A stretch of 64,000 nt of DNA from an uncultured Planctomycetia bacterium (GTDB lineage: Bacteria > Omnitrophota > Gorgyraeia > 2-02-FULL-51-18 > JAGOUK01), in the NCBI GenBank assembly GCA_964430735.1, contig CAYSFB010000007.1, forward strand, positions 62,179 to 126,178, read 5' to 3'. Below the pieces are notes generated by a model. The model was not told the DNA's origin, searched no databases, and was given only the letters and a program-made list of their open reading frames with translations. A program made the position numbers and the translations under genes. Of this stretch, positions 15,776 through 32,684 are shown in pieces (the stretch's first letter is position 1; each line of letters begins with the position of its first letter).

Positions 15776-16665
15776 AGCTGCCGCAGCCCGCGGAAGCTTT
15801 TTTGACGCATCTGGACCGCGACAAAAACTACTCCGCCCACACCCGTTTGAATTACCGCATCGACCTGCGAGATTTTTTCGCTTTTCTCGGCGACGCGCCG
15901 CCGGAGAGCGCGGACCGGCTCCGGATGCGGTCGTATCTGGCGCACGCCGCCGGAAAGGGGTATGCCAAGCGGACGCTCGCGCGCAAGCTGGCGACGCTCC
16001 GGTCCTTCTACCGTTATTTTGTCCGTGAGGGCCGGATGGCCAAGAACCCCATGTCCGCGATCCGCAGTCCCAAGCTCGAAAAAAAGCTCCCGTCCTTTCT
16101 GAGCGAAAAAGAAATCGACCGCCTGCTCTCCTTCGAAACGAAGGACTTGTCGGGACATCGCGACCGGGCGCTTCTCGAGACGCTGTATTCGACCGGGTGC
16201 CGCGTGTCGGAGCTCGTCGCTCTGGACGAGCGCGACGTGGACACGATCGGCGCGATGATCCGGGTGCTGGGCAAGGGCCGCAAGGAACGCCTGTGTCCGA
16301 TGGGCAGCCGCGCGCTCTCGGCGGTCCGCGAATATCTGGAGGCGCGTTCCCGTGACCCGCGTCTGGCCGGCCGCCGCGGCCCGCTTTTTCTCAACCATTC
16401 GCCGCACGCGCGCGGTTCGCGCCTCACGGCCCGTTCGGTCCGCCGCATCCTGACGCAACGCGTCGAGGAAATGAGCGTCCGCGCCAGGATCTCGCCGCAC
16501 GCGCTGCGGCACTCGTTCGCGACCCACCTTCTGAACCGCGGCGCCGACCTGCGCTCGGTGCAGGAGTTGCTCGGCCATTCGAGCATCTCGACGACGGCGA
16601 TTTACACGCACGTCAGCTCCGAGCGCCTCAAGCAGGTTTACGAAAAGGCTCATCCCCGCGCATGA
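15772..16665 (+). CDS. xerC: tyrosine site-specific recombinase XerC/XerD family
   Basis: The GTG start overlaps the topA stop. The catalytic motifs are [23 protein letters not shown]. Confidence 0.8.
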
Positions 16666-17936
16666 CCTTCCTCTACAACGTCCTGCTGTTCCTGTACGGA
16701 TTGGCGGTGCTGCCCGTGTTGGCTGCGAAGGGCAAGCTGCGCGACGGGTTCCGCGAGCGCCGGGGACATCTCTCCAAAGAAAATGCCGCGCGCCTCGAAG
16801 GCAGGCGGACGGTCTGGGTTCATGCGGTGAGCGTGGGCGAAGCCCGGCTTGCCATCCAATGGATCGAGCGCCTCAGGCGGAAGGAACCCTCGGTCGTCGC
16901 GGTGCTGACGACGACGACGGCGTCCGCCCAGAAGATCGCGCGGGAAGCGGCCTGCAGCGACGTTGTGGTGACCTATTGCCCCTTCGACTTCAGCTGGATG
17001 ATGGGACGTTTGATCGACGCCGTTCACCCGTCGGCGATCGTGATCCTGGAGACCGAAGTCTGGCCCAACCTTCTGCGCCAGGCGGAGCGGCGGGGGATTC
17101 CCGTAATCCTGATCAATGCGCGGCTTTCCGATAAGGCCTATCCCGTTTACCTGCGCTGGAAATTTTTCGTGCGGCCGGCTTTTGAGCGGATCACGCTCTG
17201 CCTCACTCAAAACGCCGAGCACGCCCGCCGATTCTGCGAAATCGGCGTTCCGCCTGACCGGGTGCGGGTCACCGGTAACATGAAATTCGATCTCGAGGCG
17301 CCTAAAGTCACCGAAACCGTGCGGCTGGCCATGACAGTGTTCCGCGCCGATTCCAAGTCGCTGCTTTTGGCCGCGTCGACACATCCCGGGGAAGAGGAAC
17401 AGCTCGTCAGTGTGTTCGAGGCCGCGCGGGTGCATATTCCGGGGCTCAAGCTCGCGCTGGCGCCGCGCCATCTGGAGCGTCTCGCTGAAGTCGAAGAAAT
17501 CATCCGCCGAAGAGGCCTCAAGTGCGCTAAAATATCGGACTTGGAGCGGCATTATGCGTCGAATGTGGACGTGCTCCTAGTGGACGCTTGGGGTATTCTG
17601 AACCAGCTCTACGCGCTCTCGGACCTTGTGTTCGTGGGCGGAAGTCTCGTGCCGGTCGGCGGTCACAACCTGGCCGAACCGGCCGTCGCCGGTTGTCCGG
17701 TGCTGTACGGACCCTGGATGCAGAACTTCAAGGACATGGACGAGGAGTTCCGGGCGGCCCGCGCGGGCGTCCGGGTCGCAGACGCGCGGGAGCTCGAAGC
17801 CCGCGTGATCGAACTTTTTCAGGATCCCGGAGCGCGCCGGCAGCTGGCCGAACGTTCCCGGGCGGTCGTCGCCGCGAACGCCGGAGCGACCGATCTTAAC
17901 CTAAAGGAAATTTTGACATGCTCATCAAAACGCTGA
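16662..17936 (+). CDS. waaA: 3-deoxy-D-manno-octulosonic acid (Kdo) transferase
   Basis: 424 aa with the [18 protein letters not shown] motif of GT30 KdtA. It joins xerC through an ATGA overlap. Confidence 0.85.
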
Positions 17937-18901
17937 TGCGCCCCTTGCTCGGCTTCGGAGAAAAGCTCTACCGTCAGGGTCTTGAGCGCGACAAGAAGCG
18001 CGCCGGCGCCGCCAAGCGCCTCGACGCGCGCGTGATCTCGGTCGGTAATCTGACTTGGGGCGGAACCGGCAAAACGCCGCTGGTGATGTTCCTGGCCCGG
18101 AGCTTGGCGGAGGCGGGGCAAAAAGTCGCCGTCCTGACCCGCGGATACGGCAACGACGAATGCAAGGAACTTAAAGACCGTCTTCCGGGAATCCCGGTTC
18201 TCGTGGGCAAGGACCGGTACGCCACCGGACAGGAAGCCATTCAGAAGCACGGTGCCAAATGGATTCTGCTCGACGACGGGTTCCAGGTCTGGGATCTGCA
18301 GCGCGACCACGACATCGTGACCGTCAACGCCACCCAGCCCTTCGGCAACGGCCGGCTCATCCCGGCCGGCAATCTGCGCGAGCCCGTGGAAGCCCTTGCG
18401 CGCGCATCCACATTCGTGCTCACACAGTCCTTCCTGGGCCGCCACAACACCGCGCTCATCCGTCAGAAGCTCCGCGAGGTGAATCCCAAGGCGCCGGTGT
18501 TCGAGGCGGACCATCACCCGATCGCGTTTCTGGATTTCCGCAACAACCGTCCGTTGCCGCTCGACATGGTGCGCGACCAGCGGGTCGCGATCCTTTCCGG
18601 TATCGAGGACCCGATGTCGTTCGAGAACACGCTCTCGCGCCTCGGCGCCAAGATCGTGTACGCCGCCCGCTACCGGGACCACCACGCGTTCACGCCGGGC
18701 GACCTGAAGCAGGTCTTTGACGCCTGCAACGAGTGCAAGGTCCGGTACCTCGTGACCACCGAAAAAGATTCCTACCGCCTCGCGAACCTCATCACCGACG
18801 ACCGGCAGCCGACCCGGGTGCTGATGCTCCGGATCGAGATCCGCATGGACGACGAGGACGCCTTTCTCGAGCGATGCCTCTCAGCCGCCGCCAACCGCTA
18901 G
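17918..18901 (+). CDS. lpxK: tetraacyldisaccharide 4'-kinase
   Basis: It carries the P-loop [16 protein letters not shown]. It overlaps waaA by 19 nt. Confidence 0.85.
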
Positions 18902-20838
18902 GCCGGCATTTCGCCGACACCGTACTGCTGGCCGCGCTCCGTTTTCTGCGGCTTCTGCTGCTGCCCTGGCCGATGAGCGTCCGGATCCGCTTCGGCGGAT
19001 GGGCCGGATGGGCGGCCGGCCGCGTTTCCAAGCGCCGCCGTCTGGCGCTCAATAACCTCAAGCGCGCCTTCGCCGGCTCCGGCCGCACCCGCCGCGATCT
19101 CGAGCGAATCCTGGACGATTCCCACCGCGACCTCGGCCGCTCCCTGGTCGAATTCCTGATGAGCCCGTCGATCGATGCAAAGTATTTTGAAACCCATGTG
19201 GAAGTGGAGGGTTCGGAACGTTTGGATGCGCTCACAGCGTCTGGTAAAGGCGCCGTGCTGCTCACGGGCCATATCGGCAACTGGGAATTTTTGAACCTGA
19301 TGGCCGGCGTCCGAGGATATCCGCTGGCCGTTTTGGCCAAGGTTCAGAAGCTCGCGAAGACCGACGCCTGGCTGAACCGCCTGCGCACCCAGCGCGGAGC
19401 AAAAGTCGTGCTGCGCGGCATGGACGTGCGTCAGGTGTATCGGACGCTGGAAGGCGGCGGCCTGGCCGGCATTTTGGCCGATCAAGACGGCGGAAGCGGC
19501 GGCATTTACGCCCCGCTCTTCGGCCGGCAGTCATCCTACCCGCGCGGCGTCGCGCGTTTTTCTTACAAGACGGGCGCTCCGGCGCTTCCTGTGTTTGCCG
19601 TGCGGACGTCGCTGGACCGCCATCGGATCCGCATCGGTGATCCTGTCCGTCCGGCCGCAGGTGAGGCGGAGGACGCATATGAGCAGCGGGTCGTCGCGGA
19701 GTTTTCTTCTCAGCTGGAAGCCATGGTGCGTCAGTATCCGTCTCAGTGGATTTGGGCGCATCGGCGGTGGAAGTCGAGCCCGGACCGGGATATCGCGGTC
19801 CTGGACGACGGACGCAAGGGGCACACGCATCAAGCGCTCGCCGTCGCGGCGCAGGTGGCCGATCGCCGCGCCGGGCATCCTGGATGCAGAGAGACGAGGA
19901 CGGTGCCCGTCGCGTACCGATCATCCTTTGCACGAGCCGTTTTGACCATCTTCGGCATTCTGACCCGCGGACGCCTTTGGGGAGGCATGCGCTGGCTTCG
20001 CTGGGCGCTCACCGACGCGAGTTACGGAGCCCTGTCGGCGGTGCCCGCCGACGTCGTGATATCCTGCGGCAGCTCGACCGAAGCGGTGAACCTGATTCTT
20101 TCGCGGGATTGCGGAGCGCGGTCCTGCTACATCCACAAGCCGCAATTCGGCCGGCGCTTTTTTTCGGCCGTCCTCGTTCCGGGGCATGACCGCGCGGCCG
20201 GATCCAATGTCCTCCAGACGCGGGGGGCGTTGAGTTTTGTGAATCCTGGACGGATGGGGGAGTTGCGCGAACGCGCGCGCGCGGAAGCGCGGATCCCGGC
20301 AGGCGTACGGGCGGCGGCGCTTCTGGTCGGCGGCCCGTCGAAGCATGCCCCCTGGGATCCGGACGCGCTCGAAAAGATATTTTTTGCCTTGCGGGAATTC
20401 AGCCGGGAGCATAAGCTTTATTTGCTTGTTACGACCTCGCGGCGCACGGATCCGGCCGTCGAATCGGCCGTCGAACGGCTTTTCGTCGGTGAAGCCCTGT
20501 GTCCGGTGCTGGTGATGCCGAACCGCTCCAACCCCAGGCTCGCGTACGAGGGGATTCTGGCCGCCGCGGACCTGATCCTGGTGACGGCCGACTCTGTTTC
20601 GATGGTGTCGGAGGCGGTTTCGACCGGCAAGCCGGTCGGGTTGGTCGTCCCGGGTCGTACCTCCGCGGATGGGGCCGGAAAGTTTTTTCGTTTCATGTCA
20701 GATCTTGAGCGCGAAGGCTCAGTGACGCCGGTCAGCCTCGAGAATTTAAACGCGTTTTTGACCCGCGGATCCGTTGATCCGCACACCCGCCAGGCCGGCG
20801 ATGCGATCGCTTTGGCCGCGGACCTGCTCGCAAGATAA
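18874..20838 (+). CDS. fusion protein: N-terminal LpxL/HtrB-type lipid A late acyltransferase plus C-terminal ELM1/DUF1022-like domain (654 aa)
   Basis: This is one uninterrupted frame. The N-terminal half has the LpxL motifs (TGHIGNWEF, H-x4-E). The C-terminal half resembles ELM1-family proteins often encoded in LPS core loci. Its start overlaps lpxK by 28 nt. Confidence 0.7.
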   Translation: MPLSRRQPLGRHFADTVLLAALRFLRLLLLPWPMSVRIRFGGWAGWAAGRVSKRRRLALNNLKRAFAGSGRTRRDLERILDDSHRDLGRSLVEFLMSPSIDAKYFETHVEVEGSERLDALTASGKGAVLLTGHIGNWEFLNLMAGVRGYPLAVLAKVQKLAKTDAWLNRLRTQRGAKVVLRGMDVRQVYRTLEGGGLAGILADQDGGSGGIYAPLFGRQSSYPRGVARFSYKTGAPALPVFAVRTSLDRHRIRIGDPVRPAAGEAEDAYEQRVVAEFSSQLEAMVRQYPSQWIWAHRRWKSSPDRDIAVLDDGRKGHTHQALAVAAQVADRRAGHPGCRETRTVPVAYRSSFARAVLTIFGILTRGRLWGGMRWLRWALTDASYGALSAVPADVVISCGSSTEAVNLILSRDCGARSCYIHKPQFGRRFFSAVLVPGHDRAAGSNVLQTRGALSFVNPGRMGELRERARAEARIPAGVRAAALLVGGPSKHAPWDPDALEKIFFALREFSREHKLYLLVTTSRRTDPAVESAVERLFVGEALCPVLVMPNRSNPRLAYEGILAAADLILVTADSVSMVSEAVSTGKPVGLVVPGRTSADGAGKFFRFMSDLEREGSVTPVSLENLNAFLTRGSVDPHTRQAGDAIALAADLLAR

Positions 20839-20855: not shown

Positions 20856-23006
20856 ATGAACATTCTTCAGATCGTGCCGGAGCTGCGCTCCGGCGGCGTC
20901 GAACGCGGAACCGTGGACTTCGCCAAATACCTGCTCAAGCAGGGCCACGGCTCTCTGGTGGTTTCCGCCGGCGGCGCGCTGGTCGCGGATCTCGAGGCGG
21001 CCGGCGTCCGCCACGTCACGCTGCCGGTTCATAAAAAATCGCTGTTCAGTATCTGGCGCCAGGTCGGCGTCCTGGCGGAGCTTCTGAAAAAGGAAAATAT
21101 CGACCTCGTCCACGCGCGCAGCCGCGTGCCGGCGTGGATCGCTTTTTTTGCGTGCCGCAAAGCCGGCATCCCGATGGTCACCACCTGTCACGGCGTGTAC
21201 AGCACGCATGGATTCAGCCGCATCATGGGTTGGGGGAAGTATGTGATCGTCATCAGCCACGCCGTCAGCCGGCACATGAAAGAAAACTTCAACGTTCCGC
21301 ATCACCGCATCCGCCTCATCCACCGCGGCGTCAATTTGTCCGAGTTCGGTCTGGAAGCGTCCGGCCCCGCGGCTCCCGCGGCTCCGGCCCCTTCCGAAAA
21401 AATCATCGGCATCGTCGGCCGCGTCACCCCGATCAAGGGCCACCGCGTGATGCTCAAGGCGATGGCGCGCGTCGCGCGCGTGTATCCGGACGCCAAGCTC
21501 TGGGTGGTGGGTGATTCACCCCGTCCGCGCTACATGGACGAACTCAAGCTCATGGTGCGCAAGCTCGAGCTTCAGAAGAACGTGGAATTTCTGGGCACGC
21601 GCCAGGATATTCCGGAACTGATGCGCCGGATGAGTCTCCTGGCCGCCCCGGCTGTGGGGGAAGAGGCCTTCGGCCGCGTCCTGATCGAAGCGGGCGCCTG
21701 CGGCGTGCCGGTCATCGCCAGCCGCATTGGCGGCATCGTCGACGTGGTGCGCTCCGGCACGGATGGCATCCTGGTCCCGGCGGGCGACGCGTCCGCGCTG
21801 GCCGAGAACATCATCAGCGTGCTCAAGGAGCCGGAGTACGGCCGCCGTCTAGCGGAGAGCCTGCGCCGCCGCGTCCGTGATGAGTTCAGCGACAAGACGA
21901 TGTTCGAAAAAACCATCGGCGTGTACCGCGAGACGCTTGAACGCAAAAAAATTCTGGTGATCAAGCTCAGCGCGCTCGGCGACGTCATTCTGAGCACGCC
22001 GTCGTTCCGGGCGATCCGCAAGCGTTATCCCCAGGCCCGGATTGTCGCGCTGGTCGAGCGCGCGGCGTATCCGGCCCTCAAGGCCTGCGCGTACGTCGAC
22101 GATGTCCTGTCGTTCGAAAAATTCGACAAAAAGGACGTCGCGTCCATCGTCCGGCTGGGGCGGCTTCTGTCCCGGGAGCAGTTCGACGTGTGTGTCGACC
22201 TCCAGAACAACCGGCTCTCGCATCTTCTGTCCTATCTTTCGGGCGCTCACACGCGGGTGGGGTACGCCAACCGCCGGCTCGACCTTTTTCTCAACCGCCC
22301 GGTCAAGGATCTGCGGCCGGTGGTCGGCCCGGTCGAGCACCAGTTCCAGCTGCTCGAAAACCTGGGGATCGAACATCCGGACACGCGGCCCGAACTTTCG
22401 GCCGACCCGGTCGACGAGGACGCGGTGGGCAAATTCCTGCGCGAAAACTGGTTGGGGGAAAATCAGACCCTGGTCGGCATCAACCCCGGATCCAGCCCGC
22501 TGTGGAAAACCAAACAGTGGCCCCAGGAGTACTTCGTCGAGCTTTGTGACGCGCTCTCGCGCGAAAACGTCCGCGTCGTGATCACCGGAACGAAGGATGA
22601 TTTGCCGGCGGCCGAGGCGATCGCGCGCCAGACGCGCACCCGCCCCATCGTCGCGGCCGGCCGCACCACCATCGGCGAGCTCATCGCGCTGGTCCGTCGG
22701 TGTCGTGTGTTTGTCACGTCCGACTCGGCGCCGATGCACATCGCCACCGCCGTCGGCACGCCCGTGGTCGCGCTCTTTGGTCCCACTGATCCGCGCCGCC
22801 ACGTCGCTCCCGGCCGCGCTCCGATTTCGGTCCTCAACAAGGAAGTGAAGTGCAGCCCATGTTATCTTAAAAAGTGCCCGATCGGCCTCATCTGCATGAA
22901 GCAGATCCTGCCGACCGAGGTCTTTGACCGCGTTCTGGCCTTCCTGCGCCCGGAAGAGGGGAACGCCCGCGCCGTCGAAGAGACGCCGGTCACCGCCGGC
23001 TTTTGA
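20856..23006 (+). CDS. bifunctional glycosyltransferase: N-terminal GT4 (RfaG-like) fused to C-terminal GT9 (heptosyltransferase-like)
   Basis: The GT4 part is residues 1-370 and includes an EAFGRV-type E-x7-E region. The GT9 part starts at ILVIKLSALGDVILSTP and includes ..SDSAPMHIATAVGTP. Confidence 0.75.
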   Translation: MNILQIVPELRSGGVERGTVDFAKYLLKQGHGSLVVSAGGALVADLEAAGVRHVTLPVHKKSLFSIWRQVGVLAELLKKENIDLVHARSRVPAWIAFFACRKAGIPMVTTCHGVYSTHGFSRIMGWGKYVIVISHAVSRHMKENFNVPHHRIRLIHRGVNLSEFGLEASGPAAPAAPAPSEKIIGIVGRVTPIKGHRVMLKAMARVARVYPDAKLWVVGDSPRPRYMDELKLMVRKLELQKNVEFLGTRQDIPELMRRMSLLAAPAVGEEAFGRVLIEAGACGVPVIASRIGGIVDVVRSGTDGILVPAGDASALAENIISVLKEPEYGRRLAESLRRRVRDEFSDKTMFEKTIGVYRETLERKKILVIKLSALGDVILSTPSFRAIRKRYPQARIVALVERAAYPALKACAYVDDVLSFEKFDKKDVASIVRLGRLLSREQFDVCVDLQNNRLSHLLSYLSGAHTRVGYANRRLDLFLNRPVKDLRPVVGPVEHQFQLLENLGIEHPDTRPELSADPVDEDAVGKFLRENWLGENQTLVGINPGSSPLWKTKQWPQEYFVELCDALSRENVRVVITGTKDDLPAAEAIARQTRTRPIVAAGRTTIGELIALVRRCRVFVTSDSAPMHIATAVGTPVVALFGPTDPRRHVAPGRAPISVLNKEVKCSPCYLKKCPIGLICMKQILPTEVFDRVLAFLRPEEGNARAVEETPVTAGF

Positions 23007-23028: not shown

Positions 23029-24162
23029 ATGAAAATCCTGATCCTCGCCAATCACGCCCGACGCGGCGGGATCACGTCGTACGTTTCTGTTTTGGCCCGT
23101 GAACTCGTGCGGCGCGGCCACCGGGTCCTGGTCGTGACCGGCGGCGGCGAAACGGCGCCGCAGTTCGAGGCGGTCGGCGCCGAGCACCGCACCCTTTTTC
23201 TTGATACGAGCTCCGAGCTCAATCCGCGCTTGTGGGGATCCGCTGCCGCTTTGCGCGGGTGGATCGACCGGGAGGGGTGGCAGATCGTTCACGCGCAAAC
23301 CCGGGTCGCCCAGACGGTCGCGGCGATCGCGCTGCGCGGACGGGACGTTCCGCGCGTCACGACCTGTCACGGATTTTTTAAAACCCGCTTTTTCAGAAAA
23401 CTGCTGCCGCTTTGGGGGGATCGTGTGATCGCGATCAGCCGGGCGGTCGAAAAGCACCTGCTGCGCGATTGGGCGCTGGCCCCGAAGCGTACGGCGTATG
23501 TTCCGCACGGTGTCGAACGGTTGTATGCCGACGAGGAGCTTTTGCGGCTGCGGGAGGAAGCCCGCCGCGAACTCAATATTTTTTCCGGTTCCGTCCTCGC
23601 CGGGGCGCTGGGCCGCCTTTCGCCGGTCAAGGGGTATCACGTACTGATTGAAGCGATGGCGCTTTTGAAGGACGTGCCGGTGGAACTGGTGCTGGTCGGC
23701 GACGGACCTGAAGCCCCGCGGCTCGACGAGTCCATCCGCGCGCTGGGCGTCGCGGCGCGCGTCCGGCGGATTCCGGCGATCGCGAATCACCATGCTATAC
23801 TGCATGCGTTCGACATTTTCTGCGCTCCGTCGCTCCAGGAAGGTTTGGGATTGGCGGCGATGGATGCCATGGCGCGGGGTACGTGCGTCATCGCTTCGAA
23901 TGTCGGCGGTTTGCCGGACCTCATCCGCGACGGTGAAACCGGGCGCCTCGTGCCCGCTGGCGACGCGGCGGCGCTGGCCGCGGCGATTCGCGGGCTGGCA
24001 TCCGACGCTGCCGCGCGGACGCGGCTGGGAAGCGCCGGCCGGCGCTTTGTCGAACGGGAATTCACCCTGAACCGGATGATCGAGGGGACTGAGCGCGTTT
24101 ACGCGGAGCTGCTGAGCGCCGCCGAAGTCCCCACCTCTCACAAGGATGCGCATGGCGTTTAA
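23029..24162 (+). CDS. GT4-family glycosyltransferase
   Basis: It starts MKILILANHARRGGITSYV.. and its C-terminal half has the EGLGLAAMDAMARG (E-x7-E) motif. Confidence 0.8.
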   Translation: MKILILANHARRGGITSYVSVLARELVRRGHRVLVVTGGGETAPQFEAVGAEHRTLFLDTSSELNPRLWGSAAALRGWIDREGWQIVHAQTRVAQTVAAIALRGRDVPRVTTCHGFFKTRFFRKLLPLWGDRVIAISRAVEKHLLRDWALAPKRTAYVPHGVERLYADEELLRLREEARRELNIFSGSVLAGALGRLSPVKGYHVLIEAMALLKDVPVELVLVGDGPEAPRLDESIRALGVAARVRRIPAIANHHAILHAFDIFCAPSLQEGLGLAAMDAMARGTCVIASNVGGLPDLIRDGETGRLVPAGDAAALAAAIRGLASDAAARTRLGSAGRRFVEREFTLNRMIEGTERVYAELLSAAEVPTSHKDAHGV

Positions 24163-24949
24163 ATTTTCGTTCAAAAGCTGGATTTCGCGGATCCGGATCA
24201 AGCGCTGGATCATCACGATCGTGCTGCTGGTCGCGGCGTATGCCGCGCTCAACCGTGCGTACATGACGCCGATCCTGATGTACCACCACGTCGATGAGCG
24301 CTGGCAGGAGTGGAAGCTCAGCGTCTCGCCGCACAGCTTTGCCCGGCAGATGGAATTCCTCAAAGCGCACCGCTACAACGTCCTGTCGCTGGGCGAATAC
24401 GTCGACCTGCTCAAAAACAAGCAGCCGATCCCCAAAAAAAGCGTCGTCATCACCTTTGACGACGGGTACGACAACAACTTCACCGAAGCCTTCCCGGTCC
24501 TCAAGAAAATGGGATTTCCGGCAACCATCTTTATCCAGGTCGACGGCGTGGGCCGCCGCGGGTACATGACCTGGGACGACATTGCGATCTTGATCGAAAA
24601 CGGGATCGAAATCGGCAGCCACACGGTCCATCACGGGTTTTTGCCCGACCTTTCCGACGACGAAATGCGGAAGGAGATTGTCGAGTCCAAAGCGATCCTC
24701 GAGAGCCGTCTCCAGCGGCCCATCACGATGTTCAGCTACCCGGGCGGCGGGTTTAACGCCGCCGCGCGCCAGCACGTGATCGACGCCGGTTATGCAGGCG
24801 CGGCCGCCACACATCCCGGCCCCGATTATCCCGACCTGGATCCGTACGCGCTCAAGCGCATCCGCATCAGCCGCACGTCCGACAACCTCTTCGTCTTCTG
24901 GCTTCAGCTGAGCGGGTTTTTCACGCATTATGAGGAATTCCGGGATTAG
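24146..24949 (+). CDS. polysaccharide deacetylase (CE4/NodB homology domain) with an N-terminal TM anchor
   Basis: It carries the NodB motifs VITFDDGYDNN and HTVHH. It is embedded in the glycosyltransferase cluster. Confidence 0.8.
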   Translation: MRMAFKFSFKSWISRIRIKRWIITIVLLVAAYAALNRAYMTPILMYHHVDERWQEWKLSVSPHSFARQMEFLKAHRYNVLSLGEYVDLLKNKQPIPKKSVVITFDDGYDNNFTEAFPVLKKMGFPATIFIQVDGVGRRGYMTWDDIAILIENGIEIGSHTVHHGFLPDLSDDEMRKEIVESKAILESRLQRPITMFSYPGGGFNAAARQHVIDAGYAGAAATHPGPDYPDLDPYALKRIRISRTSDNLFVFWLQLSGFFTHYEEFRD

Positions 24950-25997
24950 CGCCGCGTCCGCCGGTGAATCGCCCCGGATCTTGGTAGTCGGGGTGGATTG
25001 GCTCGGCGACGCCCTGTTCATGACTCCCGTTTTCCGGGCGGTCAAAAAAAAGTGGCCGCAGTCCTTTTTGGCCGTCAGCACCGCTTCCCGCAACCTTGGC
25101 GTCCTCTCGCGCTGCCCCGACCTCGACACTGTGATTCCCTACGACGAAGTCCCGTTTTTGCTCGGCCTGCCGGCTCAGCAGCGGCTGGCTTCGCGTTTCC
25201 AATCTCTGCGCTTCGGTTCGGCGCTTTTTCTTCACCGCTCCTTCACCCGTGCGCTGGCCGCGGCCCGCGCGGGAATTCCAAAACGCCTCGGATTCCGGAA
25301 CACCAAACGCGACTGGCTCATGACGGAGCTGATCGATCCGCCCGCTCCGTCGCTGCATCGGATCGACGCGTACCTGTCGGTGCTCGCCCCGCTCGGGATC
25401 ACCGGAGCCGACCGGACTCCGGCCATCCGGCCGCTGGCCGGCGATCTCCCGGAATGGAATGAAGTCCGTTTGTCCCGGACGCGGTGGGCGGCGGATGACC
25501 GGATCCTCGTGCTGCACCCCGGCGGCAACTGGAACCTCAAACGCTGGCCCGTTGAACATTTTGCAGAAACGGCCCGCCGCGCGTCGGCGGCCGGGTGGAA
25601 GGTGGCGGTGTGCGGTTCGGCGCATGAGGCGCATCTGGGCCGGACGATCGAAGCGGCTGTGTCGGGCGGTTCGGTTGTTTCATTCTGCGGCGCGACGAGC
25701 TTCGGAGCGCTGGTCGGACTTTTGGCGTCCGCCCGTCTTTTGATCTCCAACGATTCCGGTCCGCTGCATCTGGCCGCCGCTCTGGGCACGCCGGTGACCG
25801 GGCTGTTCGGTCCCACGCTGGCGCGTCTCACCGGTCCGGTGGCATCCGGCTCGGTCCGGATCGTTCAAAAGGACTTCGGGTGCGAGCTTCCGTGTCTGTT
25901 CGCGGATTGCCGGGACCGCGTGTGCCTGGACCGTCTGACGGTGGACGAAGCGCTGGCTGCGGCATCCGCCGCACTCGGGGAGCCGGTGGTCCGATGA
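24930..25997 (+). CDS. GT9-family glycosyltransferase (LPS heptosyltransferase-like)
   Basis: It has the GT9 motifs ILVVGVDWLGDALFMTP and ...NDSGPLHLAAALGTP. It overlaps the deacetylase gene by 20 nt. Confidence 0.8.
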   Translation: MRNSGISAASAGESPRILVVGVDWLGDALFMTPVFRAVKKKWPQSFLAVSTASRNLGVLSRCPDLDTVIPYDEVPFLLGLPAQQRLASRFQSLRFGSALFLHRSFTRALAAARAGIPKRLGFRNTKRDWLMTELIDPPAPSLHRIDAYLSVLAPLGITGADRTPAIRPLAGDLPEWNEVRLSRTRWAADDRILVLHPGGNWNLKRWPVEHFAETARRASAAGWKVAVCGSAHEAHLGRTIEAAVSGGSVVSFCGATSFGALVGLLASARLLISNDSGPLHLAAALGTPVTGLFGPTLARLTGPVASGSVRIVQKDFGCELPCLFADCRDRVCLDRLTVDEALAAASAALGEPVVR

Positions 25998-28003
25998 GTA
26001 CGACCGACCGGCGGGTCGTCCGGCAGGCGCTGTTCGTGAGTTTTTCCAATCTCGGAGACGCGATCCTTTCGCTGCCTGCGCTGGACGCGCTGATCAAGCG
26101 TTATCCTGAGGCGAGCGTCGACGTGGTGTGCGGCACCGGAGCCGCGTCGGTTTTTCAGGGGGATGCGCGCATCCGCACGGTCTACGTGGACATCAAGCGG
26201 CCGCTTGCCCGGCGGCTGGAACTTTTTCGCACAATCCATTCGGTCCGGTACGACTGCGTCGTGGACCTCCGCAATTCGCTCTTCCGGTATTTGGGCAAAC
26301 GGGGGAGTTCCGGATGGAACGGCGGCTTCGTTCATATGCGGGACCGCCATCTCAACGCCGTCCGCTCGCTGGGCGCCAACGTCGAACCATACCGTTTTAC
26401 TTCCAACCGGTCGATGGATCCGGGCGCGCTCTCGGGTCGGACCGCGGTGATCGCTCCCGGCTCCAAGTCGACGACCAAAGAATGGATGGCTGACCGGTTC
26501 GCACGGCTGGCCGACCGGCTGATCCGCGAGGACGGTTTGGACGTGATCTGGATCGGAGACGAGCGCGAACGGGGGAGGATTGACGAGATCCGCGCCCAGA
26601 TGACCGAGCCGAGCGCCAATTTTTCCGGGAAGCTGAGCTGGCCTGAAACGTTGGAGCTGATCAGGGGTTGTGCCGTCGTGATCACGAACGATTCCGCACC
26701 CCTCCACGCCGCCGACCAGATCGGCAAAAAAACGGTCGCTATTTTCGGGCCCACGGATCCCGCGCGTTACGGTCCTCAGCGCAGTCCGTCCGGGGTCGTC
26801 TTTAAAGGAATCGCCTGTTCCCCCTGCGGCGAAGCCCAGTGCCGTTACGGCCACCGGCAATGTCTCACCGACATCACGGTAGAGGACGTGTATCGAACCG
26901 CCCGGCAGCTTCTGGAGGACACTCCGGAGCGCGAGAGTCCCAACGTTCTCGTCGTCCGTCTGGACCGTATCGGAGATGTGATGCTGTCGTTTCCGGCGGT
27001 CGCGGCCATCCGTCAGAAGTTTCCGAGCGCCCGCATCACCTGGCTCGTCCGTCCGGCCGCGCAGGAATTGGCCGAACGGTGTCCCGATTCCGATGAAGTG
27101 CTCGTCTACGATTATTCGCGCTCCGGCCGTCATCGCGGCGCGTTGGGCGCGCTCGCGCTGGTGCGCCAGTTGGCAAGGCGGCGATTCGACATGGCGTTTT
27201 TGCTGCATCCTACGCTGAGGACGCATCTGACCGCGGCGTTGTCCGGAATCCCGTACCGCGCGGGGTACGACGTTCGGGGCGGCTGGCTTCTGACACACCG
27301 GATCGCCGATCTGCGGCGCGACGGCTACCAGCACGAAAGCCGCTACGCGCAGGACGTCGTCCGCGCGCTCAATGTCCCTCCGACGGACGCCGTTCCCCGG
27401 CTGATGCTGTATGCCGAAGACACGATTGCCGCGTCTGCGCTGCTCCGCGCTTCGGGATTGGATCCGGAAAAGCCCTACGCGGTCCTGCATGCGGCCGCTT
27501 CCTGCAAATCCAAATGCTGGCCCGCCGATTCTTTCGCAGCGCTCGCCAACCGTTTGCGGTCGGAGCGGGGGCTTCAAATCGTCCTGGCGGGCGACCCCTC
27601 GAGCGCGCCGGTCAACGCGGAGCTGGCTGCGCGGATCCCGGGCGCGGCGGATCTCTCGGGCCGGACGCCGCTCATGACGCTGGCGGCGTTGTGCCGCTCG
27701 TCGGCCATCGTGGTTTCGAACGATTCCGGCCCCGCTCACGTGGCCGCCGCAGCCGATGCGCGCGTACTCAGCATCTTCGGCCGCAAGGAAAAGGGGTTGT
27801 CCGAACGGCGCTGGAGCCCTCTCGGCTCCAAGACGCGCGTCCTGCGCAAGGATGTCGGATGCGTCGTGTGTCTGGCGGACCGTTGCCCGATCGGTTTTGA
27901 GTGTCTTCGCGCGCTCGGTGCGGATGAAGTTTTTCAGGCAGCTTCCACTCTGCTTTCCTCAACGTCTCCCGACGCTTCGCCCCTCTCCCGGCAACCCGCT
28001 TAA
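25994..28003 (+). CDS. tandem double-GT9 glycosyltransferase (two heptosyltransferase-like domains in one 669-aa protein)
   Basis: Domain 1 carries ALFVSFSNLGDAILSLPAL..NDSAPLHAA. Domain 2 carries VLVVRLDRIGDVMLSFPAV..NDSGPAHVAAA. It joins the upstream gene through an ATGA overlap. Confidence 0.75.
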   Translation: MSTTDRRVVRQALFVSFSNLGDAILSLPALDALIKRYPEASVDVVCGTGAASVFQGDARIRTVYVDIKRPLARRLELFRTIHSVRYDCVVDLRNSLFRYLGKRGSSGWNGGFVHMRDRHLNAVRSLGANVEPYRFTSNRSMDPGALSGRTAVIAPGSKSTTKEWMADRFARLADRLIREDGLDVIWIGDERERGRIDEIRAQMTEPSANFSGKLSWPETLELIRGCAVVITNDSAPLHAADQIGKKTVAIFGPTDPARYGPQRSPSGVVFKGIACSPCGEAQCRYGHRQCLTDITVEDVYRTARQLLEDTPERESPNVLVVRLDRIGDVMLSFPAVAAIRQKFPSARITWLVRPAAQELAERCPDSDEVLVYDYSRSGRHRGALGALALVRQLARRRFDMAFLLHPTLRTHLTAALSGIPYRAGYDVRGGWLLTHRIADLRRDGYQHESRYAQDVVRALNVPPTDAVPRLMLYAEDTIAASALLRASGLDPEKPYAVLHAAASCKSKCWPADSFAALANRLRSERGLQIVLAGDPSSAPVNAELAARIPGAADLSGRTPLMTLAALCRSSAIVVSNDSGPAHVAAAADARVLSIFGRKEKGLSERRWSPLGSKTRVLRKDVGCVVCLADRCPIGFECLRALGADEVFQAASTLLSSTSPDASPLSRQPA

Positions 28004-28359: not shown

Positions 28360-29379
28360 ATGGACAAGATCCAATCGATGGAATATTCGCGCCTGAAGCA
28401 GGTGGTGAATTCGTTCAACCGCGTGCGCGTCCTCGTGATCGGGGATTTGATTCTGGACGAGTTTATCTGGGGCAAGGTGTCCCGCATATCTCCTGAGGCG
28501 CCGATCCCGGTTGTTTGGGTGAAGTCCGAAAGTTTTGTCCCCGGCGGTGCATGCAATGTCGCGAACAACCTTCGCTCGCTCGGCGCCAAGGCCGACGTGA
28601 TCGGCGTGATCGGCACTGAGGGGCGGGGCCGCATGCTCATGGAGCTGCTGCAGCAGAAGGGGATCGGCACGTCCGGCATCCTCAAAGACGCCTCGCGCCC
28701 AACAACGCTCAAGACCCGGGTAGTTGCGCATCACCAGCAGGTGGTCCGCATCGACCGGGAGGAAATAACCCCGCTTTCCAAGGATATTCAACGCCGCATC
28801 CTCGCGGACGTGCGCAAGCGGCTCAAGCATTTTGACGCCGTGTGCGTCGAAGACTACGGCAAAGGCGTGATCACGCCGGAGCTCGTCCAGGAGATCGTCC
28901 GCCTGGCCCGCCGTCAGGGAAAAATCATCACGGTCGATCCCAAGGAGAGCCACCTGTCGTATTACCGCGGCGTCAGCTGCATCACGCCGAACAACCACGA
29001 AGCCTCCACGCTCTCCAAAATCGTGATCAAAGACGACGCGTCGCTCAAGCGCGCGGGGCAAAAACTTCTGCGCGTCCTCGCGTGCGAAAACGTGCTCATC
29101 ACGCTCGGCGAAAACGGGATGTGTCTCTTTCAAAAGGGTCTCAAACCTGTTAAAATTCCGACTTTGGCGCAGGATGTGTTCGACGTTTCGGGCGCGGGCG
29201 ACACGGTGATCGGAACCTACACCCTGGCGCTCGGATCCAAGGCCGCTCCGATCGAAGCGGCGCATCTGGCCAACTGCGCGGCCGGCATCGTGGTCGGCAA
29301 AGTCGGTACCGCGACCGTCACGCAGAGCGAACTTTTGGCCCGTGTCCGTCAACTGTTGTCCGTCACCTCGGAAGCCTAA
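28360..29379 (+). CDS. hldA: D-glycero-beta-D-manno-heptose-7-phosphate kinase (RfaE domain I / HldA-type; no adenylyltransferase domain)
   Basis: It carries the PfkB-family motifs GDLILDEFIWGKVSRISPEAPIPVV and ..DVSGAGDTV. At 339 aa it is kinase-only length. Confidence 0.8.
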   Translation: MDKIQSMEYSRLKQVVNSFNRVRVLVIGDLILDEFIWGKVSRISPEAPIPVVWVKSESFVPGGACNVANNLRSLGAKADVIGVIGTEGRGRMLMELLQQKGIGTSGILKDASRPTTLKTRVVAHHQQVVRIDREEITPLSKDIQRRILADVRKRLKHFDAVCVEDYGKGVITPELVQEIVRLARRQGKIITVDPKESHLSYYRGVSCITPNNHEASTLSKIVIKDDASLKRAGQKLLRVLACENVLITLGENGMCLFQKGLKPVKIPTLAQDVFDVSGAGDTVIGTYTLALGSKAAPIEAAHLANCAAGIVVGKVGTATVTQSELLARVRQLLSVTSEA

Positions 29380-29394
29380 AAGCACACAACCCAC

Positions 29395-30129
29395 ATGCAA
29401 ACCATCGGCGTCATTCCCGCACGGCTCGGATCCACGCGATTGGCCCGCAAGGTCCTGATGGACCTCGGCGGGAAGCCCGTGATTCAGCACGTGTACGAGC
29501 GCACCCGCAAGGCGCGCCTCCTCGATGACGTGATCGTGGCCTGCGACGACGACGAGATCGTATCCGTGGTCCGCGGCTTCGGCGGCAAGGCCGTTCTCAC
29601 CTCCAAACACCACACGACCGGCACCGACCGCCTCGCCGAAGTCGTCAACGACCTCGACGTGCAGACGATCGTGAACATCCAGGGCGACGAGCCCTTCGTG
29701 AATCCGTTGACCATCGACGACCTCGTGGGCCTGATGCAGAAGGAAGCCGGCACGGTGATGGCCACCGTCGTCAAAAAGTCCACGAGCTTCGAGGACTTCA
29801 AGAAGCCCGACGTCGTCAAGGCCGTCCTGGACGACGAAGGCCACGTGCTTTATTTTTCTCGGATGCCGATCCCGACTTTTTTGAAGGAAGGGGAATCGTT
29901 CTACAAGCACATCGGCCTGTACGCCTTCACCAAGGAATTTTTGTTCACGTTTAAAAAAATGCCCCCCTCCTTCCTGGAGCGGCACGAACGCCTCGAGCAG
30001 CTGCGCGCGCTGGAAAACGGCTACCGCATTCGGGCGATCGAAACCAAATTCGAAACCATCGGCATCGACACTCCTGAAGATCTGGAGCGGGCCCGCGCCG
30101 TTCTGGCCAGCCAGGAAGCCGCCGGTTAA
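29395..30129 (+). CDS. kdsB: 3-deoxy-manno-octulosonate cytidylyltransferase (CMP-Kdo synthetase)
   Basis: It carries the IPARLGSTRLARKVL motif and is 244 aa. Confidence 0.9.
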   Translation: MQTIGVIPARLGSTRLARKVLMDLGGKPVIQHVYERTRKARLLDDVIVACDDDEIVSVVRGFGGKAVLTSKHHTTGTDRLAEVVNDLDVQTIVNIQGDEPFVNPLTIDDLVGLMQKEAGTVMATVVKKSTSFEDFKKPDVVKAVLDDEGHVLYFSRMPIPTFLKEGESFYKHIGLYAFTKEFLFTFKKMPPSFLERHERLEQLRALENGYRIRAIETKFETIGIDTPEDLERARAVLASQEAAG

Positions 30130-30147
30130 CCGGCCAGACAGGATCCC

Positions 30148-31788: not shown

Positions 31789-32684
31789 CCCGCGCCGCCG
31801 CTGCCAAGAAGCCGGCTTCGTCCGCCGGTCCGGCCAAGGCCGAGCCGGTGCGCCTGGGCAAGCTCCGCATCGGTCCCGGCTGCCCGCTCACGATCATCGC
31901 CGGCCCCTGTGTGATCGAGTCCGAAGCGTCCGCGCTCCGCCACGCGAAACATCTGAAAAAACTCGCCGACAAGCTGGGCGTCCAATTCGTCTACAAGTCC
32001 AGCTATGACAAAGCCAACCGCACGTCCGCTTCCGCCTTTCGCGGATCGGGCATGGAGTCGGGCCTGGAGATCCTGGCCCGCGTGAAGCGCGAACTCGGCG
32101 TTCCGGTCACAAGCGATGTTCATTCGCCGCAGGAGGCCGAAGCCGCCGCCGGCGTCGTGGACATCCTGCAGATCCCGGCATTTTTGTGCCGCCAGACGGA
32201 CCTTCTGATCGCTGCCGGCCGCACCGGCAACGTGGTCAATATCAAAAAGGGGCAGTTCATGGCCCCCGAAGACATGCGTTACGCGGTGGAAAAAGTCCGC
32301 TCCACCGGCAACCGCCGTATTTTTCTCACCGAACGGGGGACTTCGTTCGGCTACCGGACGCTCGTGAACGACTTCCGCGCGATCCCGATCATGCGCGACC
32401 TCGGCGTGCCCGTCATTTTCGACGCGACCCATTCGGTCCAGCGGCCCGGAGGCCTGGGTCACGCGACCGGGGGAGACCGGCACTTCGCTCCGATGCTGGC
32501 ATGCGCGGCGACCGTCGCGGGCGCGGACGGAATTTTTATGGAAGTACACGAAGATCCGGACAACGCCCTTTCGGACGGTCCCAATTCGCTGCCGCTCGAG
32601 TGGCTGCCGGAACTGTGGAAAAAGCTTCAGATGCTCAGCGGAGTTTCCTGCCGTGTCGATCGCGACCGCGCAAGCCGTTCTTAA
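31785..32684 (+). CDS. kdsA: 2-dehydro-3-deoxyphosphooctonate aldolase (Kdo-8-P synthase)
   Basis: The ATG overlaps the pyrG TGA as ATGA. The DAHP/KDO8P synthase motifs are GPCVIES and KSSYDKANR. Confidence 0.9.

What the first reader, a model, noticed from the sequence alone, without database searches (positions are those of the whole stretch)
18874..20838. Single ORF fusing an LpxL/HtrB-type lipid A late acyltransferase to an ELM1-like C-terminal domain
The first ~300 aa carry the lysophospholipid/lipid A acyltransferase motifs (HIGNWEF). The following ~350 aa resemble the ELM1/DUF1022 family, which is often found as a separate gene of unknown function in LPS core loci. The two halves share one uninterrupted frame. 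Its start lies 28 nt inside lpxK. The fusion physically links an uncharacterised domain to lipid A late acylation.
Basis: partly seen in the sequence, partly recalled or inferred. Interest (0 to 1): 0.5.

Follow-up and report, generated by a model that had tools for sequence, protein, structure and literature searches.

The report
LpxL acyltransferase fused to KdoT-like glycosyltransferase
One gene in this Omnitrophota LPS operon really does fuse a lipid A late acyltransferase to an ELM1-type domain; that domain family was recently shown in Acinetobacter to add a third Kdo sugar to the same lipid intermediate, so the fusion is a conserved and probably bifunctional enzyme.

Summary
ORF 18874-20838 (+, 654 aa) is uninterrupted. 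It carries PF03279 (res 27-300, HIGNWE = H133/E138) and PF06258 (res 316-621), and overlaps the lpxK stop by 28 nt.

It is not an assembly artefact:
- The same protein occurs in other assemblies.
- Codon-position GC stays in one frame across the junction.
- I collected 178 distinct proteins with the same architecture.
- The junction (HRRWKS-SPDR) is invariant across 26 homologues.

In GTDB representative genomes the fusion is confined to Candidatus Omnitrophota and a few MAGs labelled Planctomycetia. It always sits in the order topA-xerC-waaA-lpxK-[fusion]-[GT4::GT9]-GT4.

The ELM1-like protein A1S_2903/GtrOC1 of A. baumannii is KdoT, a CMP-Kdo:Kdo2-lipid IVA KdoIII transferase with an essential SRRT motif (JBC 2025). 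This protein has an invariant SRRT (S522-T525), and its model is a GT-B fold joined to an LpxM-like domain (pLDDT 88.6, pTM 0.85). LpxL and KdoT both use Kdo2-lipid IVA.

Best reading: a membrane-anchored bifunctional enzyme that couples secondary acylation with an inner-core glycosylation, probably Kdo. Donor sugar and activity are inferred, not shown. It is a new variant of known kinds and of moderate interest.

The parts
18874..20838 (+). Complete fused gene (654 aa plus stop): LpxL-type acyltransferase joined to an ELM1/KdoT-type GT-B domain
   Evidence: ORF list. Pfam PF03279 + PF06258. Single frame by codon-position GC. AF2 model pLDDT 88.6, pTM 0.85.
18898..18960 (+). N-terminal hydrophobic helix (res 9-29), the presumed inner-membrane anchor as in LpxL/LpxM
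   Evidence: Modelled as helix H9-29. Kyte-Doolittle 19-residue mean is 1.62 at res 13-31, the second highest in the protein. The anchoring role is inferred from LpxL/LpxM.
18952..19773 (+). Lipid A late acyltransferase domain (res 27-300)
19270..19287 (+). HX4E catalytic dyad motif HIGNWE (H133, E138)
   Evidence: Read directly from the sequence. H133, G135, W137 and E138 are invariant in 26 homologues. E138 corresponds by motif to the catalytic Glu mutated in LpxM structure 5knk (E127A; title).
19759..19806 (+). Fusion junction: end of the acyltransferase (H296-R-R-W-K300-S301), then the short segment S-P-D-R-D-I-A-V-L leading into the first strand of the GT-B domain
   Evidence: H296, R297, R298, W299, K300 and S301 are invariant and P303 nearly so. 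There is no length variation at the junction in 26 homologues. No stop or frame change.
19807..20835 (+). ELM1/KdoT-family GT-B glycosyltransferase domain (res 312-654)
19807..19824 (+). N-terminal motif D312-G-R-K-G316-H317. Its spacing matches KdoT D8...H13.
   Evidence: D312, G316, H317 and Q320 are invariant. D and H are present in 146 of 147 fused domains. The correspondence to KdoT D8/H13 comes from the residue numbers given in PMC12856342, not from a direct alignment.
20185..20190 (+). H438-D439 motif (PxHD). Matches KdoT H109-D110 as an adjacent HD pair.
   Evidence: Invariant in 26 homologues. Present in 146/147 fused and 72/73 distant standalone family members. KdoT numbering.
20437..20448 (+). 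SRRT motif (S522-R523-R524-T525), the donor-side motif needed for KdoT activity
   Evidence: Read directly from the sequence. Invariant in 26 homologues. Present in 146/147 fused domains and 71/73 distant standalone proteins. The role of R179/R180 in KdoT is from PMC12856342.
20593..20613 (+). C-terminal subdomain motif S574-V-S576-M577-V-S579-E580
   Evidence: S574, S576, M577, S579 and E580 are invariant and conserved family-wide. Its function is not known; the position is in the nucleotide-sugar-binding half of the GT-B model.
16662..17936 (+). waaA/kdtA (Kdo transferase). It makes the Kdo2-lipid IVA that both domains of the fusion are proposed to use.
   Evidence: PF04413 E 9.4e-59. NCBIfam lipid IV(A) Kdo transferase models at E 5e-103, below their equivalog cutoffs.
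17918..18901 (+). lpxK (tetraacyldisaccharide 4'-kinase). Its 3' end overlaps the fused gene by 28 nt.
   Evidence: PF02606 E 1.7e-68. TIGR00682 162.8 bits, above its cutoff of 91.95. Overlaps of 4-47 nt between lpxK and the fusion gene are also seen in L002, L003 and L004.
20856..23006 (+). Next gene downstream: a 716-aa GT4 (res 13-345) + GT9 heptosyltransferase (res 365-693) fusion, always adjacent to the LpxL-ELM1 gene
   Evidence: Pfam and NCBIfam. Same neighbour in L001-L004 and L033.
29395..30129 (+). kdsB (CMP-Kdo synthetase), in the same co-directional cluster. It supplies the donor proposed for the ELM1 domain, and for WaaA.
   Evidence: NCBIfam NF003952 301 bits (cutoff 193) and TIGR00466 208 bits (cutoff 155). 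Followed by pyrG, kdsA, kdsD, kdsC, lptC and lptB.

Best explanation
The gene encodes one membrane-anchored, bifunctional LPS enzyme.

Acyltransferase half. Residues 1-300 are an LpxL/LpxM-family secondary (late) acyltransferase with an HX4E dyad (H133/E138). It should add an acyloxyacyl chain to Kdo2-lipid IVA on the cytoplasmic face of the inner membrane.

Glycosyltransferase half. Residues 312-654 are a GT-B glycosyltransferase of the ELM1/GtrOC1 family. The only characterised bacterial member of that family, A. baumannii KdoT, transfers a third Kdo from CMP-Kdo to Kdo2-lipid IVA.

Proposed mechanism. WaaA and LpxK, encoded immediately upstream, produce Kdo2-lipid IVA. The fused protein then performs two modifications on that one lipid intermediate: secondary acylation and an inner-core glycosylation, most probably Kdo. 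The fusion tethers the otherwise peripheral glycosyltransferase to the membrane, fixes a 1:1 stoichiometry, and places both active sites next to the same substrate. The downstream GT4::GT9, GT4 and GT9 enzymes then extend the core.

Shown here: domain identities, motif conservation, folds, conservation of the fusion and of its operon position.
Inferred: both catalytic activities, the acceptor, the donor sugar (CMP-Kdo) and any channelling.
For: Domain identity and folds:
- Both Pfam domains score far above their cutoffs.
- The model is confident as a whole (pLDDT 88.6, pTM 0.85), which suggests a defined inter-domain arrangement.

Conserved residues:
- The catalytic-type residues of both halves are invariant in 26 homologues down to 31% identity: H133/E138 and D203-Q-D205, and D312/H317, H438-D439, S522-R-R-T525 and S574..E580.
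- The junction HRRWKS is also invariant.

Link to KdoT:
- KdoT needs the SRRT arginines, and a Rickettsia homologue complements the mutant (PMC12856342; PMC10936431).
- LpxL's textbook substrate is the same Kdo2-lipid IVA (established knowledge of the Raetz pathway).

Conservation of the fusion and its context:
- 122 of the 150 nearest 50%-identity cluster representatives of the ELM1 domain are fused to an LpxL domain. 178 distinct fused proteins were seen in all.
- Synteny waaA-lpxK-fusion-GT4::GT9-GT4 is conserved at 32-45% identity.
- In other Omnitrophota the same ELM1 clade is fused to LpxK instead: L033, P0094 and P0121. So the domain is linked to lipid A enzymes in two different fusion forms.
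- The complete CMP-Kdo pathway (kdsB, pyrG, kdsA, kdsD, kdsC) lies in the same co-directional cluster.
Against: - No activity was tested.
- I could not obtain the KdoT sequence. The equivalence to D8/H13/H109/D110/R179/R180 rests on motif order and spacing, not on an alignment. The spacing differs: D to HD is 126 residues here against 101 in KdoT, and HD to RR is 85 against 70.
- SRRT is conserved across the wider PF06258 family (71/73 distant standalone proteins). A. baumannii has other ELM1-family GTs (GtrOC14, 19, 22) of unknown specificity. The motif therefore does not prove Kdo as the donor.
- The acyltransferase domain scores below every NCBIfam equivalog cutoff (best 117 bits against 273). 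LpxL, LpxM and other regiospecificities cannot be told apart.
- The kds genes would be needed for WaaA anyway.
- Standalone ELM1 genes in Proteobacteria are not next to lpx genes.
Confidence: 0.62

Rival explanations
1. The protein is bifunctional as above, but the ELM1 domain transfers a sugar other than Kdo (for example a hexose, hexuronic acid or amino sugar) to the Kdo region or to lipid A.
For: PF06258 contains several Acinetobacter outer-core GTs besides KdoT (GtrOC14, 19, 22). SRRT is family-wide and so not diagnostic. Motif spacing differs from KdoT. The fused clade is only 25-39% identical to the proteobacterial standalone proteins found.
Against: The only characterised member uses CMP-Kdo. 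A distant alphaproteobacterial homologue complements the mutant, so the function is conserved over a long distance. The SRRT arginine is proposed to contact the Kdo carboxylate. The fusion partner and operon position put the domain at the Kdo2-lipid IVA stage. The cluster carries the whole CMP-Kdo pathway.
Confidence: 0.25
2. The ELM1 domain is catalytically inert in the fusion. It serves as a Kdo2-lipid IVA or nucleotide-binding module, scaffold or regulator for the acyltransferase.
For: Plant ELM1 is described as an adaptor, not an enzyme. Single mutants of the candidate catalytic bases in KdoT had no effect.
Against: All motifs shared with standalone family members, including the functionally required SRRT, are invariant across fused proteins down to about 30% identity. 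This is the pattern expected of an active enzyme. The GT-B fold is complete and confidently modelled.
Confidence: 0.06
3. The fusion is an artefact: two adjacent genes (lpxL and an ELM1 gene) joined by an assembly or sequencing error.
For: The window is probably from a metagenome-assembled genome. One related contig (L089) has the two halves in different frames.
Against: The same protein occurs in different assemblies. 178 fused homologues come from many samples. The junction is invariant with no spare linker, RBS or start codon. Codon-position GC is continuous. In L089 the ELM1 frame still encodes the tail of the acyltransferase (FPEQYLWFYKMYK), so that case is a frameshifted fusion, not a natural split.
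Confidence: 0.02
4. The N-terminal domain is not a lipid A acyltransferase. It acylates another glycolipid, as PatA does for phosphatidylinositol mannosides, or a lysophospholipid.
Against: The best NCBIfam and Pfam hits are lipid A lauroyl-acyltransferase models. The gene overlaps lpxK and follows waaA in every relative examined. No other late acyltransferase is present in the LPS cluster of this window.
Confidence: 0.05

Closest known systems
KdoT (A1S_2903 / GtrOC1) of Acinetobacter baumannii: ELM1-like CMP-Kdo:Kdo2-lipid IVA KdoIII transferase (VanOtterloo, Voss and Trent, JBC 2025, PMC12856342; mBio 2024, PMC10936431)
   Same: Same Pfam family (PF06258) and GT-B fold. Invariant SRRT motif in the donor-binding half. 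The same order of conserved D...H, HD and SRRT motifs. Located in an LPS core cluster with a GT4 gene next in line and a polysaccharide deacetylase nearby. The proposed acceptor (Kdo2-lipid IVA) fits the fusion partner and the upstream waaA and lpxK.
   Different: KdoT is a standalone, roughly 35 kDa peripheral protein encoded beside ilvE, away from the lpx genes. Here the domain is about 340 residues with longer spacers, and it is covalently joined to a membrane-anchored acyltransferase inside the lipid A operon. Sequence identity to KdoT could not be measured. Donor and linkage are untested.
LpxL / LpxM (HtrB / MsbB) lipid A secondary acyltransferases; structure of A. baumannii LpxM (PDB 5KN7/5KNK)
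   Different: Known LpxL/LpxM enzymes are single-domain proteins of about 300 aa. This one carries a 350-aa glycosyltransferase at its C terminus. It falls below all NCBIfam equivalog cutoffs, so it is not assignable to LpxL, LpxM, LpxP or LpxJ.
Other bifunctional fusion enzymes of LPS biosynthesis (HldE kinase/adenylyltransferase; ArnA), cited from general knowledge
   Same: Two steps that act on the same or consecutive intermediates are joined in one polypeptide.
   Different: Those fusions join soluble nucleotide-sugar enzymes. This one joins a lipid acyltransferase with a glycosyltransferase, both acting on the membrane lipid itself.
LpxK-ELM1 fusions in other Omnitrophota (L033 ORF 6933-9083; P0094; P0121), found here
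   Same: The same ELM1 clade (43-53% identical domains), the same downstream GT4::GT9 gene, and the same idea of tethering the GT to a lipid A enzyme.
   Different: The partner is the 4'-kinase LpxK rather than the acyltransferase, and no LpxL remnant is present at the junction.
Plant ELM1 (Arabidopsis mitochondrial fission factor), the protein that gave PF06258 its name
   Same: Same Pfam family.
   Different: It is a eukaryotic adaptor for dynamin-related proteins with no reported glycosyltransferase activity (as summarised in PMC10936431). It is not relevant to the bacterial function.

Membership tests
ELM1/GtrOC1 (KdoT) family glycosyltransferase | Significant match to PF06258 | tested here: met
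   E 1.6e-51, 175.7 bits against a cutoff of 27, res 316-621 covering profile positions 2-279 of 304.
ELM1/GtrOC1 (KdoT) family glycosyltransferase | GT-B fold (two Rossmann-like halves) | tested here: met
ELM1/GtrOC1 (KdoT) family glycosyltransferase | Invariant SRRT motif in the C-terminal half (KdoT R179/R180) | tested here: met
   S522-R523-R524-T525 at nt 20437-20448. Invariant in 26/26 homologues and 146/147 fused domains. The motif definition is from PMC12856342.
ELM1/GtrOC1 (KdoT) family glycosyltransferase | Conserved N-terminal Asp and an adjacent His-Asp pair (KdoT D8, H109-D110) | tested here: inconclusive
   D312 and H438-D439 are invariant and in the right order. The equivalence is by spacing only, because the KdoT sequence could not be retrieved.
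ELM1/GtrOC1 (KdoT) family glycosyltransferase | Uses CMP-Kdo as donor and Kdo2-lipid IVA or Kdo2-lipid A as acceptor, making KdoIII | not testable with these tools
   Biochemical property. Only contextual support exists: waaA and lpxK upstream, kdsB/A/D/C in the cluster, fusion to LpxL.
ELM1/GtrOC1 (KdoT) family glycosyltransferase | Works together with a GT4 enzyme that adds the next sugar (GnaT/LpsB in A. baumannii) | tested here: inconclusive
   A GT4 domain (fused to GT9) is encoded immediately downstream in all relatives examined. Orthology to GnaT was not tested.
LpxL/LpxM lipid A secondary acyltransferase | Significant match to PF03279 | tested here: met
   E 2.1e-38, 132.6 bits against a cutoff of 22.3, res 27-300 covering profile positions 24-294 of 295.
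LpxL/LpxM lipid A secondary acyltransferase | HX4D/E catalytic dyad | tested here: met
   H133-I-G-N-W-E138 at nt 19270-19287. H133 and E138 are invariant in 26 homologues.
LpxL/LpxM lipid A secondary acyltransferase | Fold of LpxM (PDB 5KN7) with an N-terminal membrane helix | tested here: met
LpxL/LpxM lipid A secondary acyltransferase | Reaches the curated cutoff of a specific equivalog model (LpxL, LpxM, LpxP) | tested here: not met
   The best is NF005120 at 117 bits against a cutoff of 273; TIGR02207 reaches 92.9 against 297.8. This gives family-level membership only. Position and chain specificity remain open.
LpxL/LpxM lipid A secondary acyltransferase | Transfers an acyl chain from acyl-ACP to Kdo2-lipid IVA | not testable with these tools
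   Biochemical property. Context supports it: overlap with lpxK, and waaA upstream in all relatives.

The most novel reading that the evidence does not exclude
In the phylum Omnitrophota, late acylation and addition of an extra inner-core sugar (a third Kdo) are obligatorily coupled on one rigid two-domain enzyme that processes Kdo2-lipid IVA in a single encounter. The KdoT-type glycosyltransferase would be a movable module that evolution has attached to different lipid A enzymes (LpxL here, LpxK elsewhere). That would mean the WaaA-independent 'split Kdo pathway' just described in Acinetobacter is ancient and widespread. It would also predict a Kdo3-type inner core in an uncultured phylum whose LPS has never been analysed.
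Probability: 0.35. Interest if true: 0.55.

Novelty: new variant of a known kind. Interest (0 to 1): 0.42.

Why it matters
- The ELM1-like family received its first biochemical assignment only in December 2025, for Acinetobacter, with one Rickettsia homologue tested.
- A conserved natural fusion of this domain to the enzyme that shares its substrate is independent 'Rosetta-stone' evidence. A second fusion to LpxK adds to it. Together they indicate that ELM1-like proteins work at the Kdo2-lipid IVA stage well outside Proteobacteria.
- The fusion gives a compact, testable bifunctional enzyme for studying how acylation and core extension are ordered.
- It makes a concrete prediction about the LPS of Omnitrophota.
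- It flags annotation problems. The same protein family is named either 'KDO2-lipid IV(A) lauroyltransferase' or 'mitochondrial fission ELM1 family protein', and each name describes only half of the protein.
- It is not a new kind of system. Both domains belong to known families, and the architecture is already visible in precomputed Pfam annotations.

Tried and rejected
1. AFDB fold search (afdb50) was unavailable. It would have given a structural comparison with the AlphaFold models of A1S_2903 and Rickettsia homologues.
2. Retrieval of the KdoT sequence failed. The alignment in the paper's supplement is an image. A profile search with ELM1 domains returned only Omnitrophota fusions and unnamed or proteobacterial standalone proteins. 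A search seeded with a gammaproteobacterial standalone protein (P0236, next to an ilvE-like gene as in Acinetobacter) returned the large Azospirillum/Chromatiales group but no Acinetobacter or Rickettsia entry.
3. A sequence search of the PDB with the ELM1 profile gave only a chance hit at E 0.89.
4. hhalign of the ELM1 profile against this window's WaaA and a GT9 gave no signal, with probability below 1%. Sequence gives no evidence on which GT-B family is closest.
5. L084 (Lentisphaerae) looked like a possible fusion from its long tblastn span. It is two tandem standalone LpxL paralogues.
6. L089 looked like a natural split (lpxL and ELM1 as separate genes). It is a frameshifted fusion, because the ELM1 frame still encodes the acyltransferase tail.
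7. Standalone ELM1 genes in Proteobacteria were checked for linkage to lpx genes. None was found, so gene neighbourhood outside Omnitrophota does not add support.
8. Literature searches for the fusion (Omnitroph + LpxL; KdoT; ELM1 + acyltransferase + lipid A + fusion) found no description of it.
9. An internal start for a separately translated C-terminal half was considered and rejected. The junction has no spare linker and is invariant.
Full report
**1. Observation**

The window contains one open frame from 18733 to 20838 on the + strand. From the ATG at 18874 it encodes 654 residues with a single terminal stop.

This start is supported in two ways. N-termini of orthologues at 62-76% identity align from the same Met. 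A GAGGA lies 13-17 nt upstream.

Pfam finds two domains:
- PF03279 (Lip_A_acyltrans) at residues 27-300, E 2.1e-38.
- PF06258 (Mito_fiss_Elm1) at residues 316-621, E 1.6e-51.

The HIGNWEF string is at residues 133-139 (nt 19270-19290).

**2. The fusion is real, not an artefact**

- GC at the third codon position stays at 0.63-0.87 in one frame through both halves. The other two frames are littered with stops.
- The identical protein is encoded on a Logan assembly of SRR14271366 and on a 128-kb NCBI contig.
- A word-indexed search returned 26 full-length homologues (31-76% identity), all carrying both domains.
- An exhaustive HMMER search with the C-terminal domain alone found 3430 family members (E <= 1e-3). 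Of the best 150 cluster representatives (50% identity), 98 are full fusions and 24 are N-terminally truncated fragments of fusions. A further 16 look standalone, 10 are C-terminal fragments, and 2 have another partner.
- Across all searches I collected 178 distinct LpxL-ELM1 proteins.
- The junction H296-R-R-W-K-S301 is invariant and P303 nearly so, and the junction shows no length variation among the 26 homologues.
- One apparent split form (L089) is a frameshifted fusion. The ELM1 reading frame still encodes the tail of the acyltransferase.

**3. Taxon and context**

In one-genome-per-species GTDB representatives, matches spanning both domains come only from Candidatus Omnitrophota and from a few MAGs labelled 'uncultured Planctomycetia'. 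In Nitrospirota, Acidobacteriota, Zixibacteria, Verrucomicrobiota, Bacteroidota, Myxococcota and others, only the acyltransferase half matches.

The neighbourhood is conserved at 32-45% protein identity:

topA - xerC-like - waaA - lpxK - [LpxL::ELM1] - [GT4::GT9] - GT4 - (polysaccharide deacetylase) - GT9 ... hldE-domain-I kinase - kdsB

lpxK overlaps the fusion gene by 4-47 nt in the relatives examined.

In this window the cluster continues with pyrG, kdsA, kdsD, kdsC, lptC and lptB. The whole CMP-Kdo pathway and the start of the Lpt export machinery are therefore co-directional with the gene. No second LpxL-like or ELM1-like ORF exists in the 64 kb.

**4. The two domains**

The AlphaFold2 model built on the 26-sequence alignment is confident (mean pLDDT 88.6, pTM 0.85).

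*N-terminal half.*
- It begins with a hydrophobic helix (residues 9-29; hydropathy 1.62).
- H133 and E138 of the HX4E dyad and the D203-Q-D205 motif are invariant.
- All top NCBIfam hits are lipid A lauroyl/LpxL/LpxP models, but none reaches its equivalog cutoff (best 117 bits against 273).
- So the domain is a family-level late acyltransferase of unassigned regiospecificity.

*C-terminal half.*
- No solved structure belongs to the family itself.

**5. What is known about the ELM1-like family**

That was true until recently.

- Kenyon and Hall placed Mito_fiss_Elm1 proteins (GtrOC1, 14, 19, 22) among the predicted glycosyltransferases of Acinetobacter outer-core loci in 2014. They noted clan CL0113 (GT-B) (PMC4172580).
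- The Trent laboratory showed in 2024 that deleting A1S_2903 (= gtrOC1) leaves a Kdo2-lipid A chemotype (PMC10936431).
[quoted passage not shown] - KdoT depends on the arginines of a conserved SRRT motif, and homologues including one from Rickettsia can replace it (PMC12856342).
- NCBI already names some of the Omnitrophota fusion proteins 'ELM1/GtrOC1 family putative glycosyltransferase'.

**6. Motif test**

The window protein reads LLVTTSRRTDPAV. S522-R523-R524-T525 (nt 20437-20448) is invariant in the 26 homologues and present in 146 of 147 fused domains.

The other conserved residues singled out in KdoT (D8, H13, H109-D110) have counterparts in the same order: D312, H317 and H438-D439. All are invariant.

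Three caveats apply:
- I could not retrieve the KdoT sequence, so this correspondence rests on order and spacing.
- The spacers are longer here. D to HD is 126 residues against 101 in KdoT, and HD to RR is 85 against 70.
- SRRT, HD, GG and S..SM..SE are conserved across the wider family, with SRRT exact in 71 of 73 distant standalone proteins. They show an intact family-type active site, not specifically a Kdo donor.

**7. Mechanism proposed**

LpxL in the Raetz pathway and KdoT both take Kdo2-lipid IVA. That is the product of LpxK followed by WaaA, and both of those enzymes are encoded immediately upstream.

The simplest reading is a bifunctional, membrane-anchored enzyme that acylates and glycosylates this one intermediate. 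The fusion would supply:
- membrane tethering for the otherwise peripheral glycosyltransferase;
- fixed 1:1 stoichiometry;
- proximity of both active sites to the same substrate.

KdoT's measured preference for the under-acylated substrate makes a physical link to the acyltransferase plausible as a way to order or couple the two steps. The GT4::GT9 fusion, GT4 and GT9 enzymes downstream would then extend the core.

Shown: domains, folds, motifs, conservation and context. Inferred: both activities, the acceptor, the donor and any channelling.

My estimates:
- about 0.62 for the whole statement, with Kdo as the probable donor;
- about 0.25 for the same architecture with a different donor sugar;
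- small probabilities for a non-catalytic ELM1 domain, a non-lipid-A acyltransferase, or an artefact.

**8. A second fusion that supports the link**

In other Omnitrophota the ELM1 domain is fused to LpxK instead. Three examples were found: L033 ORF 6933-9083 (716 aa), P0094 and P0121. Each has PF02606 followed by PF06258.

Their ELM1 domains are 43-53% identical to one another. After one 365-aa protein called as standalone (P0071), their next nearest relatives are LpxL-ELM1 proteins at 43-49% identity. The same GT4::GT9 gene follows in L033.

No acyltransferase remnant is left at the junction. Because lpxK directly precedes the LpxL-ELM1 gene, loss of the acyltransferase segment is a simple route to this form. 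That route is an inference.

**9. What did not help**

- Standalone ELM1 genes in Proteobacteria sit in varied contexts without lpx genes. One lies next to an ilvE-like gene as in Acinetobacter, and one lies among GT4 and GT2 genes.
- Profile comparison with WaaA or GT9 gave nothing.
- The AFDB libraries were unavailable.
- No paper in the searchable library mentions this fusion.

**10. Verdict**

The interpretation needs updating. This is a conserved, phylum-typical fusion of a late acyltransferase with a KdoT-family glycosyltransferase, and probably a bifunctional Kdo2-lipid IVA-modifying enzyme.

It is a new variant of known kinds, not a new kind of system. The architecture is visible in precomputed domain annotations but appears undescribed in the searchable literature and is untested.

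Interest is moderate (0.42). It gives independent support for, and a wide phylogenetic extension of, the recently proposed WaaA-independent Kdo addition, and it offers a neat experimental object. It would not astonish an LPS specialist.

Noticed in passing
window 20856-23006 (+): The next gene is itself a fusion. It is a 716-aa protein with a GT4 glycosyltransferase (res 13-345) followed by a GT9 heptosyltransferase (res 365-693; TIGR02195 154.8 bits, above its cutoff of 134.6). It is conserved next to the LpxL-ELM1 gene in L001-L004 and L033.
   Followed up: partly
L033 6933-9083 (Omnitrophota SAG AM-311-K22); also P0094 and P0121: LpxK (PF02606) + ELM1 (PF06258) fusion proteins of 701-718 aa. 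This is a different lipid A enzyme joined to the same ELM1 clade. There is no acyltransferase remnant at the junction.
   Followed up: partly
window 25994-28003 (+): A 669-aa protein with two GT9 (heptosyltransferase) matches, the best at res 318-654. It looks like a tandem GT9-GT9 protein. In relatives L002 and L004 the corresponding region holds two separate GT9 genes.
   Followed up: no
window 28360-35632 (+): A co-directional run of hldE-domain-I heptose-7-P kinase, kdsB, pyrG (CTP synthase), kdsA, kdsD, kdsC, lptC and lptB directly follows the core glycosyltransferases. From waaA to lptB this gives a roughly 19-kb LPS supercluster. CTP synthase sits between kdsB and kdsA.
   Followed up: partly
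window 24000-24750: GC content drops to 0.58-0.60, against about 0.64-0.66 around it, over the polysaccharide deacetylase gene (24146-24949, PF01522). This gene is present in some relatives (L001, L003, L033) and absent in others (L002, L004).
   Followed up: no
P0216, P0028, P0029 (hits): Other unusual architectures turned up. P0216 has ELM1 + PF04191 (phospholipid methyltransferase), 584 aa. P0028 has two tandem PF03279 acyltransferase domains, 607 aa. P0029 has PF01648 (4'-phosphopantetheinyl transferase) + PF03279, 407 aa.
   Followed up: no
L089 3324-5242 (GCA_964480185.1 contig CAYZPQ010000150.1): Here the LpxL-ELM1 gene is broken by a frameshift into a 252-aa acyltransferase ORF and a 366-aa ELM1 ORF. 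This is either a pseudogene or a sequencing error, and it makes some 'standalone' ELM1 entries in databases suspect.
   Followed up: yes
L088 3707-5975: A standalone 324-aa ELM1 gene lies just downstream of glnE and an ilvE-like aminotransferase, with GT4 genes further on. This resembles the published position of gtrOC1 next to ilvE in Acinetobacter. The protein belongs to a very large, well conserved proteobacterial group, with 5424 hits at E <= 1e-5 in Azospirillum, Chromatiales and others.
   Followed up: partly
L084 7896-9860 (Lentisphaerae MAG): Two tandem standalone LpxL-family genes (314 and 303 aa) with no ELM1 domain. The long tblastn span had suggested a fusion.
   Followed up: yes
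Database names of the fusion family: The same protein family is annotated as 'KDO2-lipid IV(A) lauroyltransferase', 'mitochondrial fission ELM1 family protein' or 'ELM1/GtrOC1 family putative glycosyltransferase', and each of these names covers only one half. One JGI entry (P0208) names both halves.
   Followed up: no
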